A stretch of DNA of 64,000 nt from Narcine bancroftii (Eukaryota). Numbering within the stretch: the stretch's first letter is position 1; every line of letters begins with the position of its first letter. The notes under the pieces are model-generated. The model was given only the letters and a program-made list of their open reading frames with translations. It searched no databases and was not told where the DNA came from. The position numbers and the translations under genes are program-made. This document shows, piece by piece, positions 2,704 to 50,690 of this stretch. The stretch is from contig NC_091478.1 of assembly GCF_036971445.1 (NCBI RefSeq), positions 95,418,001 to 95,482,000 on the forward strand, written 5' to 3'.

Positions 2704-33956
<31,253 letters not shown>

Positions 33957-34569
33957 GGCGTGCGGGTAAATGGGACCTGCGAGCAAAGAGAATCTGCTGC
34001 TTGCACTTCGGGGCCCGAACGAATGCTTCCCACTCCAAACTGCTACAGTGTATCCGGGCAAGGTGCTGGCTCCGCCAATTAGCAGCGTCCGAACCGCCGA
34101 CTGCCGGCGCGCTCAACCAATAGTTCTCTGGGGCGCGTCTGATGTCACAATACCATGTAGAAGTGGCTGGTCATGTTGCACCCTTTCGAAGCAACGCTGT
34201 TGCATTAGGCCCCTTTCACACCGCCAAATAAGGTGGGTTGAACCGGCCAATTTAGCGGGTCCGTAGCGGGTAATCTTGGGGTTGTGAAAGGTCCCAACTG
34301 GGTCGGGCGACCGGACTTGCCTGCGTGCGTGCGACAGCCTGGCGGGAAAAAGGTCAGTGTGGTCAGATAGTTTAGAGATAAAGGTCAGTGTGTTCTTCTT
34401 TGGTAAACTTTTAGTGTAGTTTGTAGTGTAGTGGAAGGATTTTAGTGTAGCTTTTAGACTAGTGTGTAGTATTGTTAATATTGTCTGCTTTGGAAGTATT
34501 TTAGTGTATTTTTAGTGTAGTGGAAAGACTCTAGTGAATCTTCGAAAACAGACTTTTACTGTTTTGATA

Positions 34570-35170
34570 ATGGCAGCCTACTGGGGGGATGGAGAGGTGC
34601 GGGAGCTGCTCTCCATAAGAGCAGAGATGGCCAAACATTTTACTCGCACTGTAAAAGATGGCCTAATTTATCAGAGGATAACCACCAGGCTCAGGGAGGC
34701 AGGGTTTTTAAGGGACAAAACCCAAGTTATAAATAAACTGAAGAATATGCGCAAGAGATTTCTTCAGCTGAATGATCACAATCGTAGGAGTGGAAGAGGG
34801 CGGATGGAGTGGCCTTACTTTGATTTGGCCTACCAGATCTGGGGTGTCAGCCCATCGGCATCCCCTGTGGCCCTGATATCAAAGATGGAGAGGCCAGAGT
34901 CCAGCGAGAACCCATGTCCCACCGAGACAGCCACCTCCAGCGAGATATCCACCCCCAGTGAGACCCCTGTCCCCAGCAAGCTGGGCTACCATAACAAGAC
35001 TGGTCACCTCAGTGAGACTGGCCAACCCAGTAAGATGGACAATCCCAATGAGGCGGCCCCCATCAGCGAGATGACCTCGGAGCCCATGCTCTCAACCAGT
35101 GTGAAGGACATGTCCACGAACGTCACAAATGCCTCCAGCAGGTTCACGGCAGAGCCACCACAGCAGCCAG
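34570..35170 (+). CDS. Myb/SANT-like (trihelix, Myb_DNA-bind_4 type) protein, exon 1
   Basis: MAAYWGDGEVRELLSIRAE...IYQRITTRLREAGFLRDKTQVINKLKNMRKRF...RRSGRGRMEWPYFDLAYQIWG fits the trihelix W..E...LL / G..R...Q...K.K.L / WPYF pattern; phase-1 donor CAG|gtaaaa at 35170/35171. Confidence 0.85.
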
Positions 35171-35274
35171 GTAAAACTGCATTGCGCACGAACACAATTT
35201 TTCCAAAGTGTTTCCTCAGTGTTTGCCCATGAAGAAGCCATCTAACTTATTTCACGTGTTCCATTGCTCTGCAG

Positions 35275-35621
35275 GATCGGAGAGGAGGGGGAAGAGGAGG
35301 AGACTCACCCGGTCGCAGGAGGTTACTGCGGAGATCCGAGGGCTGCTGATGGAGATCGACCAGAAAGACCAGGAGCGTGACCGCCTGCGTCATGAGAGGA
35401 GAGCAGAGCGGGAGGAGAGGATGCAGCGTGCACACCATAGTGTGTGGGAGCGCAGCATGGATCGGTTTGCAAGCATGATCGCAAGCCTTCAACGTGATAT
35501 CCAGGAGCAGACTGGCATGATGCGTGAAATGCTGCGTATGATGGGCTCTCCTGCACGCCCCCCTGCGCCACAATCCTCCCTCCACCCTCTGCCCTCCCCT
35601 GATTCAAGTGGGAGAGGTTGA
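35275..35621 (+). CDS. Myb/SANT-like protein, exon 2 (basic NLS-like stretch plus coiled-coil)
   Basis: Acceptor ttccattgctctgcag ends at 35274 and joins exon 1 in frame (G+GA=Gly). Reads SERRGKRRRLTR..., then an E/R-rich helix; TGA at 35619-35621. Spliced CDS 948 nt = 315 aa. Confidence 0.8.
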
Positions 35622-36849
35622 TGGAGGAGTGTCAAGGAGCCCTGGCTTCCTCCTGCTGCCTACCCTCCCTTCACACATCCCCTCTCCCTGCCCCGTGGTG
35701 GAGCGAGCATGCCCCCACTCCCTCGGTGAAGACGTACAGTCTGCAACCTTTGCTGGGAGGGCCCGCGTGTCTAAAGGTTAAAGGATGAAATCCAATCTGA
35801 AGGAGGAACTTGCCTTCAAATAGATAACTGTCCTTTCATCCACGACAGTGTAAAAAGTGAAAGGGTTGCTTTTATTTAGTATTTTTTATTGTCTTAACGA
35901 GCGATGATACACACAAAATAGTGTTAAACTGGAAAGGATGCAAAAAATAATTTGAATTTCTGTCTCATGTCATATTATGCTCATTAGTAGTCATTACTAT
36001 TGTAGTTCGTGTATTTTACCAATCTGTATAGGGCTGCAGAAAGTAAGAATTCTATCTATACATTGTATCATATAAAAAAAACTATCATGTGTATATAAAG
36101 ATTATCACAAGGGTGACAGGTTTGAATTAATACAGAGAGGCTGGGTCGGCTGCCACTTTTTCCCCGGAGAGAAGGATGCTGAGGGATGACACAGAGGTTT
36201 ATAAAATCATGCGAGGCATGAACGAAGTGAATGGTCAGTCTTTTACTCAGGGTACAAGAGTCCAAACCTAAGGGGTGCAAATTGAAGGAGAAAGGTGAAG
36301 GGTCCTGGGGGTGGTGAGTGTGTGGAACAAGCTGCCAGAGGAAGTGGGACTATTTTGACGTTTATACATTTGGACAGGTGCATGGATAGGAACGCTTAGA
36401 ACAAAACAGTTCATGATTGTGCAGAGGATAATGTCCAAACCCAAACTTAAGAGGGATGTGGGTCAAATGCAGGTGAATGGGACTGGCTTGGTCGGCATGG
36501 ACAAGTTGGGCCGAAGAGCCTATTTCTGGGCTGTAAATTTTGCCCTCTACTCTTTGAGGCAGGACATTGCACTCTGTCAAATCAATTCCAGCAAATCACC
36601 ATCTGGGTTACTCTCTGCAAAGTGATGTAAGGGAATGCTGACAATACTCTTCAGTGGTTTACACTCCCTTGGGATTGAGGGCCTCTTCCATCTGCTTCAG
36701 GTGTGTAGGTGCCCAGGTGACGGATAAATTGTTGAAGTACAGACTCATCCACAGTAGGGCAGGATATGCCTGACAGAGCAGGTGGGTGACTGGTTGGAGG
36801 TTATGCCATGCACTGACAGGTGCTTAATGCTATCCAGAATTTTCAGCAC

Positions 36850-41210: not shown

Positions 41211-42886
41211 GTAATGGAGAGTGTGTACACCTCCGCAGTGTTTACCATAAGTAGTACTTCGCTCAATATTGTTGCTTCTGTAATGATGCAGACCAGACTT
41301 AGTCAACATGGCATAGTATAGAATTCCATTTCTGATTTCTTCAGGGCTGTCCTTCACACGACCTGCTCTTGGCCTGTCATGGCAGCCAGGCACAGCAGAT
41401 GGCGGTATCCACCAACACAATGGTAGAGGTGACCAAATTTACAGATGCTCAAACGTTTCTTTTTATTGTCAAATAATAATACACAATAATATATGATATG
41501 CTTCCACCATTTGCCTGCTTAAAGGCAAACTAAGATTGCCATGAACATTGCTTAGCACCCCCAATAATAAGAGAAAGAGAAGCATAAGAGATCCTCTTCA
41601 GAGACACTGAGGGTTTGTGGATTTGCCACCAGCACTTCTGCAGCCTCATAGACTCCTGTTCAAACCATTGGCAACCCGAGCTTCAGATTCAAGCCTCTGA
41701 TATGATCAGGAAGTTTTCAATGCCTGAAGGCCCTTCAAGGGCCCTTCTTGCTCTCAGCACCTTCTTTAATTCTGGTTCCGATACTTGGTTCCTCATGAGC
41801 TGGTCTCCATCAGCCTGCAGCCTGGTGTGAGTCTTTCGACTGCAAACCACCAACAGCCCATAGCTGCTGCTGAGCCCCTCATTGGTCCACTGCTGTGGTC
41901 ACCTTTCTGCATGGTACGCTGCCCAAGACAGGTGCTGACATGTTGAGCACAGATCTCTGAGGTTGCTAGATGTTAGAAAAAAAACACGGTCATCTCCTCT
42001 AACATACTGTTTAAAGCCTGTATGGAGCCATTGGCATCATGACCGGGCAGTTGGACCCTGCAGAGAAGGGTTGTGTCTCAGTTCTGCACCAGTAGCAGTG
42101 TTGCTGTTACCAGCAGCTCCAGAACCGCCATTTTTTAGGGGTCTAGTGCAGATCACAAAAGAGCTGGAAAAACTCAGCAGGTCACACAGCATCTGTTGGA
42201 ATTAAAAGGTTATTGATATTTTGGGTCTGGGCACTTCGTCACGACATCGAGTGAAGCTGCCTCCACCCAGTGAAGGGCTTGGGTTTGTGGGGTCAAACAG
42301 CAGCTGATCAATGCCTGCTGAGCTCAGGCCTGCAGTGGTGGCACGGAGCCCTGTGGCTGGGAATATTACAGCCGGCAGCATTCCCTTACAGTGAACTTGT
42401 TGTAACGGAAGACCAACAGGTTTCAGGGAGACCAGAATGGGCCTTTCACCCAACTGATGATCAATATCATCTCCTTGTGTGTATCCAGGATCAGCTGGAG
42501 GTTCAGACAGTCCTCTGTTACGTGATTATTTTGGATGAACTTCAACGAGAACCTTGCATCCTTTTCCTGACATTAACGTGAATGGCTACAGTTAGTGCCA
42601 AACCTGGGCCATCATGGGCTCCAACCTCCTGTCAATTGAATACATCTATGTGAGGTGCTGCCTCATGAACCCAACATCATAGGACCCTTATCTCCCTGGT
42701 AAAACCTCTTCTCACTGCTACCTTTGGGCAGAAGGTACAGAAGCCTGAGGTCTAATGCCTCTGGGATCAAGAGCAGTTTTTGCACAACAGTTATCATGCT
42801 CTTGAACCTAACCCTAACCATAAATTACTCTGTAGATCTGCTGCACAACTGAAAGGTCCCATGATGTCAAAGGAGTGGGTGGGATG

Positions 42887-43139
42887 GATGAGTGGAAGTC
42901 CGAGATCCATCACCCTCCTTCCCTGGTCCACCAATCACCTCCTGGCTGCTGGGTGAATGGAAGTCTGAGATCCATCATCCATTCTCTGGTCCACCAATCA
43001 CCTCCTGGCCGCTGGGTGAATGGAAGTCTGAGATCCATCATCCATTCTCTGGTCCACCAATCACCTCCTGGCCGCTGGGTGAATGGAAGTCTGAGATCCA
43101 TCATCCATTCTCTGGTCCACCAATCACCTCCTGGCCGCT
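42887..43139. repeat. 63-bp minisatellite, about 4 copies
   Basis: Unit gggtgaatggaagtctgagatccatcatccattctctggtccaccaatcacctcctggccgct, starting at 42951, 43014 and 43077, plus a diverged first copy. Confidence 0.92.
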
Positions 43140-44700
43140 GTCTCACCTCTCTATACCCCCAGTCCTGACGCAGAGACATAACTGGAGACATCGACAATTC
43201 CTTTTCCCCACTGATGCTGCTCGACCAACTGAGTTCTCCAGCAGATTCCAGCATCTGCAGTCTCTTATGTATCTTATCCTATCCCCTTTCTCCACAAATG
43301 CTGCCCGATCTGCCAGGTGCCTCTAGCATAATCAACATCTGCAGTCGTTCTGATTTTTGGACAACAGCAGCGGCATTAAGTGGCCCAGAGCAAGCTGCTT
43401 CTCTGCAAACGTGCCAGCAGGGGGAGGCATCCATCAGCCCCACTCTCCAAGGTGCATGGTTGTGGGACAACCTCATGCACGAGGTGCCCTGTGTCAGGGT
43501 ACTGACAGGGCTAGGTCCCCTGTCCTGTTCTCTGTCAAACCTATCCATTTGCAGCGTGTACAGAATCAGGCCATCTACTGCATTGAAACATGACATTGCT
43601 CAAAGTACCACTGTTTGCGAGACGTTTGACCACATCTGGTCGAGTATTGTTGAAATGGAAATCTGTATGTTGGATAAAATATTTAATTTTGAAAAAGAAA
43701 ACTGCATTGAGCAGCATAAGTTATCGGAGAATCTAAATGTGTGTGAGAATGAATATGAGTGATGTGTGCCTGCATATCTATTTTTATGTGGGTAAGTGTG
43801 AGTTACTGTATACGTGTTTATGCATGAATATGTGTCGGTACATAGGGGTGTGTGTGTGTGGGAGAGAGACTGTGGTGACAGACTGTTGTAAACTCACAAA
43901 ATCCTTGTTGAGTTGCTTCCTGAGAAATGTCCTTTCAGACAAATGATAGTCAAAGCTCCCCTTTTCCTTTTCTAGGGGAAATAAAGCGAGTGGCTTTCAC
44001 AAAGCTTCCAGAACCCTTTTGTGGTTCAGGCGAAATGATCCTGACAATGGTCACAATCCAAATGCACTATTTCTCTGCTTCCAGAAGCCTTTCGTGGGTC
44101 AGCCATTCAAAGTGACCTTCCCTTTTGGTCACGGTGTGGTACATTAATTCCCCTTCAAAAGTGACTGTTCCTTTGGCCACAGTGGGGTATACGTTCTCCT
44201 GACAGAAAGAAATCAGACAAATTGTCTCTTACCTCATGAGGCCACATCAGCACCGTATCCCTTCAAAGAGATGTTTCTCCAAGTGCTGCTTCCTTAAAAT
44301 GGCCCCAGATCAAACCGAGTACTGTTTCTTTAACATGTTGGTTACGTGGTCTCTGCATCTGTGTTCCAGGATCTTCCTCTCTTCTGAAGTAGTGATCCCA
44401 ATGCTGTCCCCAGCCTGTCAGGCCACAGACAATCTCCAAAGTTTGCAGGGCTTGATTTGTTCTCTTAAAGTGACAGTCCCACTCAAATGAAAATGAACTG
44501 GGAGCACTTATTAGTGTTTACAATGTGTGAATGTGTGTGGCTACATGTGTTTGTGTGTGTGACTATTTGTACATATGTTTGTGTGTGTGTGTGTGTGTAT
44601 ACAGGAAATGCCCGACATGGAGGAGAGTGCAGAGGCATGTTACCAGGAGTTAAAGGATGGTTCAGGTTGGGGTTTTAGTTGGAAGTGAAGTGTAACATTA

Positions 44701-49092: not shown

Positions 49093-49739
49093 TTCAGGAT
49101 GCTCCTTATCGACCACAGTTCGGAATCAACTAAAAATTGATCAGCAAACTCCAAGCCCTGGAGCTCAACACCTCACTGTGTAAATGAATCCTGGATTTCC
49201 TCGCCCCCAGACCCAAAGAGCATGGATTGGCAAGAGCAACTCTTCCGCGATACATGAATACTTGTCCTGCATTGTTTGTTTGATTGTGTGTCTGCGTGTT
49301 ATTTTTTTCAATCCTCTTATCAGGGCCAGATGTCTTCAGCTCGACCTCAGACTCCAGCTGTGGGAGAGGCTTGTGGTTGCCACATTGGCCTCATCAACCA
49401 CTTCAAAACCCACAGAACTGAGTGCAATCAAGTCATCCTCGACTGGCCGGCCACCAACACACTGCACTGCTCGTGTCCTGCTGCTGGAGCCGGCGATGGA
49501 CGGAACTCTCCCTTTGAACGAACCAGAGGTGCCTGTCCCTTTAACTGCAGACTGGGGATCGAACGACAATCTCCAGAATGCACCGCGCCACATACGCTTG
49601 GAAATACACCAAAATATTCATTGAGAAGTAAAGAAATTGCACGAAATATTATATTAATTACAATAAAAAATAGGAATCAAACGTTAAAACGTGAGTCCAT
49701 TCGATATTTATCGCGTTTAAAACATTTTCATTTAGGAAA

Positions 49740-50165
49740 GAAAAATTGCCTGGCATTTAGTTCAAACGTCACTTCCTGATGAAACCGGACGGGCCCATTT
49801 GTTGTTGCTGAGAGGGGGGTGGTTAGTTTACAGGAGGCGCGGAAAATGCAATATTTCCAGATTTGCAGGCCTGTTGTATTCATAGTAATATTAATTAAGC
49901 AACAAATTAGATTTTAAATGAGAGTGTTGAATTATTGCATGGCGCTTAATTGGTTGGTAGCAGGTGAGGCTGAATTTCACCCCCCCTGCACCAAGTTTGG
50001 GCTTGCAACGGCCGGCATCCAGTTCAGGGCGCGCACCCGGTGGCTGCGGCGCGCGCGCACGGGAGCGACAGCGACAGGCGCGCGAGAGAGGCACCTCCCC
50101 CTCGGAGCCTTCCCGATCCGTCAGCAGTGGAAGTCGGCCCGGGGCCGCAGACCGCCGGAGCCCAG
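49740..50165 (+). promoter_or_regulatory. CpG-island promoter and probable non-coding first exon of an unidentified plus-strand gene
   Basis: CpG-dense 50000-50190; composite CRE/ETS acgtcacttcctg (49766-49778); reverse CCAAT (attgg near 49949); NRF1-like gcgcgcgcac; donor CAG|gtaggg at 50165/50166; intron-like sequence downstream. Confidence 0.65.
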
Positions 50166-50261
50166 GTAGGGAACGGGGGCCGATGCCGGTGCCCAACAGA
50201 TTGAGGGGGGGGAGGGGAATGGTACATATACAGAGCGGGGGGGGGGGGGGTGTTGCAGTGT

Positions 50262-50690
50262 CCGTGGGTGAGGGGGGGGTGGATGCAAGGGTGCCCGTGG
50301 GTGAGGGGGATGCAAGGGTGCCCGTGGGTGAGGGGGGATGCAAGGGTGCCCGTGGGTGAGGGGGGATGCAAGGGTGCCCGTGGGTGAGGGGGGATGCAAG
50401 GGTGCCCGTGGGTGAGGGGGGATGCAAGGGTGCCCGTGGGTGAGGGGGGATGCAAGGGTGCCCGTGGGTGAGGGGGGATGCAAGGGTGCCCGTGGGTGAG
50501 GGGGGATGCAAGGGTGCCCGTGGGTGAGGGGGGATGCAAGGGTGCCCGTGGGTGAGGGGGGATGCAAGGGTGCCCGTGGGTGAGGGGGGATGCAAGGGTG
50601 CCCGTGGGTGAGGGGGGATGCAAGGGTGCCCGTGGGTGAGGGGGGATGCAAGGGTGCCCGTGGGTGAGGGGGGATGTAAGGGTGCCCATG
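50262..50690. repeat. 28-bp G-rich minisatellite, about 15 near-identical copies
   Basis: Unit gggtgcccgtgggtgaggggggatgcaa. Confidence 0.95.

What the first reader, a model, noticed from the sequence alone, without database searches (positions are those of the whole stretch)
34205..35865. Intact Harbinger-type Myb/SANT gene head-to-head with GPI: candidate domesticated transposon gene on a housekeeping promoter
Seen: a two-exon, stop-free 315-aa ORF (34570-35170 + 35275-35621) with a trihelix Myb/SANT-like domain, S/T/P-rich linker, basic RRGKRRR stretch and E/R-rich helix. Its ATG is about 610 bp from the GPI ATG on the opposite strand. Upstream is TTA|GGCCCCTTTCACAC with an internal complementary motif at about 34282-34291. 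The right terminus is barely recognisable and no DDE transposase is visible. Known: PIF/Harbinger elements target TWA and encode a transposase plus a Myb-like DNA-binding protein, and vertebrates have domesticated such genes (HARBI1, NAIF1, MSANTD family). Inference: an intact ORF and splice sites despite a decayed terminus suggest selection and expression from the GPI CpG island, i.e. a lineage-specific transposon-derived regulator co-expressed with a glycolytic gene.
Basis: partly seen in the sequence, partly recalled or inferred. Interest (0 to 1): 0.8.

Follow-up and report, generated by a model that had tools for sequence, protein, structure and literature searches.

The report
Electric-ray transposon gene facing GPI
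In an electric ray, the front half of an old jumping gene sits back-to-back with the sugar-metabolism gene GPI and makes a spliced transcript with an unbroken code for a predicted DNA-binding protein, while the related copies examined are all broken, so it is likely a young tamed host gene, formed by a route already known in mammals.

Summary
The gene is real. A two-exon, 315-aa Myb/SANT plus coiled-coil ORF lies 614 bp from the GPI start codon on the other strand. Its junction is spliced in 4 of 4 runs (one study), and NCBI already annotates the protein as uncharacterised (Narcine bancroftii). It is the left 1.4 kb of an old, roughly 3.5-kb two-gene Harbinger family. No near-identical copy was found (best 83% over a piece). 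All 16 siblings scored are disabled (mean 7.9 breaks); this copy has none (P about 0.01 at its own rate). Amino-acid constraint is only suggestive. Overall dN/dS is 0.65 (0.42-1.0) against 0.81 in siblings. Replacement sites in the two folded domains are slowed about twofold against non-coding DNA (post hoc), but not significantly against silent sites there. No orthologue was found, and synteny could not be tested. Best reading: a lineage-restricted domestication on the GPI CpG-island promoter (0.62). Both the gene class (MSANTD/NAIF1) and the promoter route are published, and this scan noted other Harbinger-Myb genes on other DNA, including this genome.

The parts
33000..34250 (.). CpG island over GPI exon 1 and the shared upstream region (approximate limits)
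   Evidence: CpG observed/expected 0.76-0.89, GC 0.51-0.60 in 500-bp windows starting 33000-34000
33832..33956 (-). GPI first coding exon (ATG at 33956, GT donor after 33832)
   Evidence: contigs leave the stretch at 33832 in 4 of 4 runs and intron 1 has no cover; later exons hit PF00342
33957..34206 (.). Host DNA between the two genes, likely a bidirectional promoter; CCAAT at 34075 and 34117; upstream ATGs at 34142, 34155, 34173
   Evidence: motifs; GPI-side contigs end at 33941-34027, Myb-side contigs begin at 34110 and 34144, one run joins both. Contigs cannot show true starts
34204..34206 (+). Likely left target-site copy (ATT)
   Evidence: inferred from family copies with both ends
34207..34226 (+). 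Left terminal inverted repeat, one extra G relative to the family; lies inside the transcript's 5' part
   Evidence: 269 exact 18-mer matches in the genome, 0 for the reversed control
34277..34288 (-). Inner inverted copy of the terminal motif, 2 mismatches; about 120 bp of subterminal sequence is missing near 34316
34570..35170 (+). Coding exon 1: Myb/SANT trihelix domain (aa 4-92, with a private in-frame 6-nt deletion near 34621) and S/T/P-rich repeat linker
35171..35274 (+). 104-nt GT-AG intron, inherited from the transposon family
   Evidence: skipped in 4 of 4 runs; aligned in siblings
35275..35621 (+). Coding exon 2: basic RRGKRRR stretch, predicted long helix 213-289, P-rich tail; last 7 codons or so and the stop lie in non-family DNA
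34207..35600 (+). Remnant of the Harbinger element (left 40% of about 3.5 kb)
   Evidence: family profile positions 6-1477 of 3710 match 34205-35599 and nothing else scores
35601..35956 (+). Non-family DNA joined at the deletion; supplies the stop codon and the start of the 3' UTR
   Evidence: no other match in the genome among 27 of 27 candidates; chance-level similarity to sibling right ends
35622..36400 (+). 3' untranslated part, with an unrelated repeat at 35957-36080; contigs run about 490-590 nt past 36400

Best explanation
An old Harbinger transposon sits about 250 bp upstream of the GPI start codon facing away from it and has lost its transposase and right end; its Myb/SANT gene is transcribed and spliced, likely from the GPI CpG-island promoter, and has likely been kept intact by moderate selection as a lineage-restricted host gene whose protein is predicted to bind DNA in the nucleus. 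Shown: family origin, truncation, open frame, splicing, transcripts reaching into host DNA upstream of the terminal repeat, and broken siblings. Inferred: the promoter is shared; selection acts on the protein; the trihelix binds DNA, the basic stretch is a nuclear signal and the long helix binds a partner protein, as reported for Harbinger Myb-like proteins and NAIF1 (PMC9392472, passages). The most likely DNA targets are the family's own terminal motifs, one of which lies in its own 5' region (untested). It would then act as a chromatin or transcription adaptor without its parental transposase.
For: Junction spliced in 4 of 4 runs, with GPI intron 1 uncovered as an internal control. 0 of 16 siblings with both domains are intact (mean 5.4 frameshifts and 2.5 stops), against none here. 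Expected breaks at this copy's own branch length are 4.7, P(0)=0.0096, linker excluded. Four private non-triplet indels lie in 362 bp of 5' non-coding DNA, against one 6-nt in-frame deletion in the two domains (read by eye). Siblings evolve neutrally (0-fold 0.130 = 4-fold 0.130). In this copy 0-fold sites of the Myb and helix domains run at 0.39 of the sibling rate, linker at 0.93, 4-fold at 0.83, non-coding at 0.77; double ratio 0.52 (0.33-0.91), lowest of 18 tips. This holds with CpG-prone columns masked (0.30-0.45). The fold is predicted intact despite the two-residue loss (pLDDT 86-98 over residues 1-90), nearest to the GT-1 trihelix (E 0.05, weak). Precedent: 23 of 63 human TE-derived genes are head-to-head on CpG-island promoters (PMC2777200, Table 1).
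Against: The first three selection tests were not significant. Against the sibling majority, dN/dS was 0.59, inside the sibling range 0.36-0.84. On the tree it was 0.65 (0.42-1.0) against 0.81 (0.72-0.93), and 0.86 (0.35-5.1) in the Myb domain alone. Codon positions 1+2 and 3 are equally slowed (0.58, 0.57). The profile-score test was inconclusive. The domain partition was chosen afterwards, and within the domains silent sites are slowed nearly as much (double ratio 0.76-0.88, P 0.34-0.44). Siblings were picked by similarity to this copy. The locus looks slow throughout (left end 0.039 vs 0.082; neighbouring repeat 0.188 vs 0.225 pairwise; both biased). No orthologue was found among 98 and 1558 candidates, and its 90% cluster has one member. 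Three upstream ATGs could damp translation. All RNA evidence is from contigs of one study, and there is no protein evidence. The copy was flagged because it is intact, out of a family of at least about 90 candidates.
Confidence: 0.62

Rival explanations
1. Neutral passenger: the truncated element is transcribed only because it landed on the antisense side of a housekeeping promoter. An unmethylated, slowly mutating locus plus luck kept the frame open, and the protein has no selected role.
For: Shorter branch at most site classes. CpG observed/expected 0.48 against 0.12-0.40 in 17 siblings. dN/dS not significantly below siblings. Two residues lost in the Myb domain. PMC2777200 (abstract) argues that CpG-island promoters shield adjacent elements before any function arises.
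Against: P about 0.01 of no break even at its own slower rate. Non-triplet indels occur only outside the coding region. The linker is not slowed while both folded domains are, also after CpG masking.
Confidence: 0.22
2. Late insertion: the copy comes from a master lineage that stayed active after the main burst. Its open frame and constrained domains then reflect selection for transposition, and it has not yet had time to decay.
For: Shortest branch of 18 (0.077 vs 0.127-0.180). Internal branches show dN/dS 0.26 in the Myb domain. Silent sites in the domains are also slowed.
Against: No young relatives: best other matches are 65-90% identical, only short pieces above 83% (only 40 candidates scored per search). 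Sequences needed for mobility have decayed: extra base in the TIR, damaged inner motif, 120-bp subterminal loss, right 60% gone. No intact transposase of this family among the 12 best of 150 listed PF13359 loci.
Confidence: 0.13
3. Cis or RNA-level role: the inserted 5' end became part of the GPI upstream region, and selection acts on the DNA or transcript rather than the protein.
For: The left 92 bp are about half as diverged as sibling ends (biased). Silent sites in the domains are slowed.
Against: It does not explain the lack of frameshifts, and the 5' non-coding part has taken several indels.
Confidence: 0.03

Closest known systems
NAIF1 and MSANTD1-4, vertebrate genes from Harbinger Myb-like ORFs (PMC9392472: abstract, section 5 part 1 of 2, section 8 and passages seen)
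   Same: Trihelix Myb/SANT domain from a Harbinger second ORF, immobile, spliced and expressed, similar size to MSANTD1/3/4 (275-345 aa).
   Different: Those arose 430-500 My ago, are syntenic across vertebrates and under strong purifying selection. This one still carries a TIR, is about 8% from its dead parent family in the same genome, shows at most moderate constraint and has no orthologue found.
TE-derived genes on bidirectional CpG-island promoters in human and mouse (PMC2777200: abstract and part 1 of 5 seen)
   Same: Element inserted antisense within 1 kb of a CpG-island host promoter, transcribed head-to-head, sequence better preserved.
   Different: Harbinger is not a named row in that paper's Tables 1 and 2 (it could sit under 'Others'; supplements not read). 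This case is a Myb ORF in a cartilaginous fish.
Two-gene PIF/Harbinger transposons of fish (PMC9179366: passages seen)
   Same: The parent family has TIRs, a 3-bp target duplication, and convergent Myb-like and DDE transposase ORFs.
   Different: This copy lacks the transposase and right TIR, so it is neither autonomous nor a mobilisable non-autonomous element.
Other intact Narcine Myb/SANT genes, e.g. XP_069798291.1 and its tandem twin (L005, L007)
   Same: Same two-exon layout, 56% identity in the Myb region, open frames.
   Different: No family TIR was found in the 3.3-kb loci, so they are probably older, separate captures.

Membership tests
PIF/Harbinger transposon (this copy as an element) | Myb/SANT-like second ORF | tested here: met
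   PF13837 E 1.1e-13; trihelix model
PIF/Harbinger transposon (this copy as an element) | Terminal inverted repeats at both ends | tested here: not met
   left TIR present; no right end in 64 kb. Siblings have both
PIF/Harbinger transposon (this copy as an element) | DDE transposase ORF | tested here: not met
   absent here; present in the family (DDE motifs; a PF13359 hit at C11:36004946 lies about 1 kb from, and opposite to, a DNA match)
PIF/Harbinger transposon (this copy as an element) | 3-bp target-site duplication | tested here: inconclusive
   seen in 6 of 18 two-ended family copies; this copy has no right flank to compare
Domesticated Harbinger Myb gene (MSANTD/NAIF1 kind) | Intact ORF in an immobile single copy | tested here: met
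   searches score only the best 40 candidates
Domesticated Harbinger Myb gene (MSANTD/NAIF1 kind) | Expressed and spliced | tested here: met
   4 of 4 runs, one study, contigs whose RNA label is a guess
Domesticated Harbinger Myb gene (MSANTD/NAIF1 kind) | Purifying selection on the protein | tested here: inconclusive
   frame preserved, P about 0.01; dN/dS 0.65, 0.42-1.0; domain contrast significant against non-coding sites, not against silent sites in the domains
Domesticated Harbinger Myb gene (MSANTD/NAIF1 kind) | Same position in divergent species | not testable with these tools
   no related genome held; protein searches return only itself or 44-55% relatives
Domesticated Harbinger Myb gene (MSANTD/NAIF1 kind) | Orthology to MSANTD1-4 or NAIF1 | not tested
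   no direct comparison made; descent from a family still about 75-83% identical at DNA level in this genome makes it very unlikely (inference)
Bidirectional TE-gene pair on a CpG island | Head-to-head 5' ends within 1 kb on a CpG island | tested here: met
   start codons 614 bp apart; contig ends 33941-34027 and 34110-34144; CpG o/e 0.76-0.89. True start sites not mapped
Bidirectional TE-gene pair on a CpG island | Co-expression across tissues | not testable with these tools
   only contigs of four runs; contig depth is not an expression measure

The most novel reading that the evidence does not exclude
An electric-ray-specific transcription factor caught part-way through domestication. It binds the terminal motif of its dead parent family, at hundreds to thousands of genomic sites and at one site about 250 bp from the GPI start codon, and so ties a new regulatory network to a glycolytic promoter in a lineage with an energy-hungry electric organ.
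Probability: 0.07. Interest if true: 0.75.

Novelty: new member of a known kind. Interest (0 to 1): 0.42.

Why it matters
Known vertebrate Harbinger-Myb genes are over 400 million years old and have lost their transposon context. Here the dead parent family, the terminal repeat, the inherited intron and the borrowed promoter are all still readable. That makes this a clean case for testing how a bidirectional CpG promoter turns a transposon ORF into a host gene, and whether frame preservation comes before strong amino-acid constraint. The class and the route are both published, no function is shown, and the gene is already annotated as uncharacterised.

Tried and rejected
Right terminus near 35865: rejected, chance level. 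TTA target site: the family points to ATT. Young multicopy element: no copy above 83% over any long piece; the many hits to the left 100 bp are 0.45-1.4 kb non-autonomous copies at 84-90%. Fused or longer forms: none among 734 candidates (weak). Co-domesticated transposase partner: none of the 12 best PF13359 loci matches the family profile (12 of 150 listed, 1405 candidates). The loose contig end at 33991 comes from two other places in the genome, not an alternative exon. Pfam scan of 74 long frames right of 36000 gave one LINE-type hit and no gene. The sigma-70 promoter scan does not apply to a vertebrate. The Atlas returned only generic PF13837 clusters. Foldseek gave no hit at E 0.001. The short terminal motif is not enriched in the window (14 vs 12 expected). 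No listed holder is on record as RNA. There is no control for transcription of a dead sibling and no complex model, so those questions stay open. Five of 22 sibling rows (L060, L070, L074, L076, L077) were left out of the tree for covering under 700 columns; 16 of 22 had both domains for the break count. Long insertions were cut from sibling rows before alignment. Paper searches: 'Narcine' + 'genome' + 'transposon' 0 papers; 'Harbinger' + 'Myb-like' + 'domesticated' + 'cartilaginous' 2 papers, which did not show this locus in the parts I saw. Sinzelle 2008 was not seen and is cited through PMC9392472. Supplements were not read.

Full report
Observation. Joining 34570-35170 and 35275-35621 gives a stop-free 315-aa protein with GT..AG intron ends. 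Residues 4-86 match PF13837. The AlphaFold model has confident helices at 7-92, a low-confidence linker and one long helix at 213-289; its nearest solved fold is the GT-1 trihelix, below significance (E 0.05). The GPI start codon is at 33956 on the other strand, 614 bp away, inside a CpG island, and GPI's later exons hit PF00342. The identical protein is in NCBI as XP_069758116.1, uncharacterised, Narcine bancroftii, in a cluster of one.

Expression. Four runs of one study hold the stretch; their RNA label is a guess. In all four, contigs skip exactly the 104-nt intron, GPI intron 1 is uncovered and GPI exon 1 leaves the stretch at its donor, so these behave as RNA. Myb-side contigs reach 34110 and 34144, upstream of the terminal repeat at 34207, and one run joins both genes in one contig. 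This fits divergent transcription from host DNA, which has CCAAT at 34075 and 34117, but contigs cannot show true starts, strand or level. The 3' part runs at least to 36400. Three upstream ATGs lie at 34142-34173.

Origin. The genome holds a large old Harbinger population: 1477 candidates for the Myb domain, best other match 67% identity among 150 scored. DNA relatives are 65-83% identical over long pieces. Twenty relatives fetched at length define a roughly 3.5-kb element with AGCCCCTTTCACAC termini, a 3-bp target duplication, the same intron, and a DDE transposase on the opposite strand. Short non-autonomous copies share the ends, and an 18-mer of the terminus occurs exactly 269 times. The window copy matches the family profile only at 34205-35599. 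The transposase and right end are therefore deleted, and 35601-35956 is unrelated DNA that supplies the last codons and the stop.

Selection on the frame. Of 16 siblings covering both folded domains, none is intact; they average 5.4 frameshifts and 2.5 stops. This copy has none. Its terminal branch is shorter than all 17 siblings' (0.077 vs 0.127-0.180); after scaling for that, 4.7 breaks are expected and P(0)=0.0096. Read by eye, its private indels are four non-triplet events in the 5' non-coding part and one 6-nt in-frame deletion in the Myb domain. The copy was flagged for being intact out of roughly a hundred, which weakens this. Its position on an active promoter is a second coincidence.

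Selection on amino acids. The first tests were not significant: 0.59 against the sibling majority, siblings 0.36-0.84; 0.65 (0.42-1.0) vs 0.81 on the tree, Myb domain alone 0.86; equal slowing at codon positions 1+2 and 3; profile score between the neutral and constrained expectations. A later split by site class showed siblings neutral (0-fold equals 4-fold). In this copy, 0-fold sites of the two domains run at 0.39 of the sibling rate against 0.77 for non-coding DNA and 0.93 for the linker; the double ratio is 0.52 (0.33-0.91), lowest of 18. It survives CpG masking, but against silent sites inside the same domains it is 0.76-0.88 and not significant. I read this as a somewhat slow, CpG-retaining locus (CpG o/e 0.48 vs 0.12-0.40) with moderate purifying selection that these data suggest but do not prove.

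Range. Word-based searches returned only the protein itself. The HMMER search of cluster representatives gave 44-55% relatives; of the nine looked up, two are other Narcine genes and the rest are teleost, frog or unnamed. No related genome was available, so synteny is untested; lineage restriction is an inference.

Mechanism. Harbinger Myb-like proteins bind the TIRs and bring the transposase into the nucleus, and NAIF1 does the same for HARBI1 (PMC9392472 and PMC9179366, passages). This protein keeps the trihelix, the basic stretch and the full long helix, and has lost only a P-rich tail. I infer a nuclear DNA-binding adaptor working without its own transposase; none from this family was intact among the 12 best PF13359 loci. 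The family's terminal motif, including the copy in its own 5' region, is the first candidate target. None of this was tested.

Comparison and verdict. The gene class (PMC9392472) and the promoter route (23 of 63 human TE-derived genes head-to-head on CpG islands, PMC2777200) are published. Earlier notes of this scan report other Harbinger-Myb genes in sharks and rays, one in this genome (unchecked); none matched this protein by sequence. My paper searches found no description of this locus. It is a new, young member of a known kind: domestication 0.62, neutral passenger 0.22, late insertion 0.13, cis role 0.03. Interest 0.42.

Noticed in passing
window 49700-50200 and G000:C22:95539112-95539522 (L150): A second CpG-rich stretch with a GT donor near 50166 on the + strand. 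A PF15923 (DUF4745; GARRE1/KIAA0355 by recall) exon lies on the + strand 57 kb past the window end. GPI and this gene thus face away from each other here; by recall they are on the same strand in human, which would imply a local inversion.
   Followed up: partly
L005 and L007 (G000:C11, 14 kb apart): Tandem pair of intact two-exon Myb/SANT plus coiled-coil genes without family TIRs, with near-identical upstream parts; L005 is XP_069798291.1. They are among the closest intact relatives of the window protein and may be the twin pair of note e1-9397215.
   Followed up: partly
L138, L139, L140: Three long open HARBI1-like transposase frames (387-428 aa) unrelated to this family's profile. L138 and L139 show changes at motif positions where the first and second catalytic aspartates are expected (by eye), so they may be domesticated, catalytically altered genes.
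   Followed up: no
L141-L144, L147-L149: A different, apparently younger Harbinger-like transposase family with long open, mutually similar frames.
   Followed up: no
L093-L118: Non-autonomous copies of about 0.45-1.4 kb that keep about 265 bp of the left end and 190 bp of the right end of the family.
   Followed up: partly
window 17300-25700: Several LINE reverse-transcriptase-like fragments, including a 525-aa open frame at 18342-19916 on the minus strand, inside a GPI intron (by eye).
   Followed up: no
window 50270-50690, 42836-43323, 13083-13643: Tandem repeat arrays giving long repetitive open frames.
   Followed up: no
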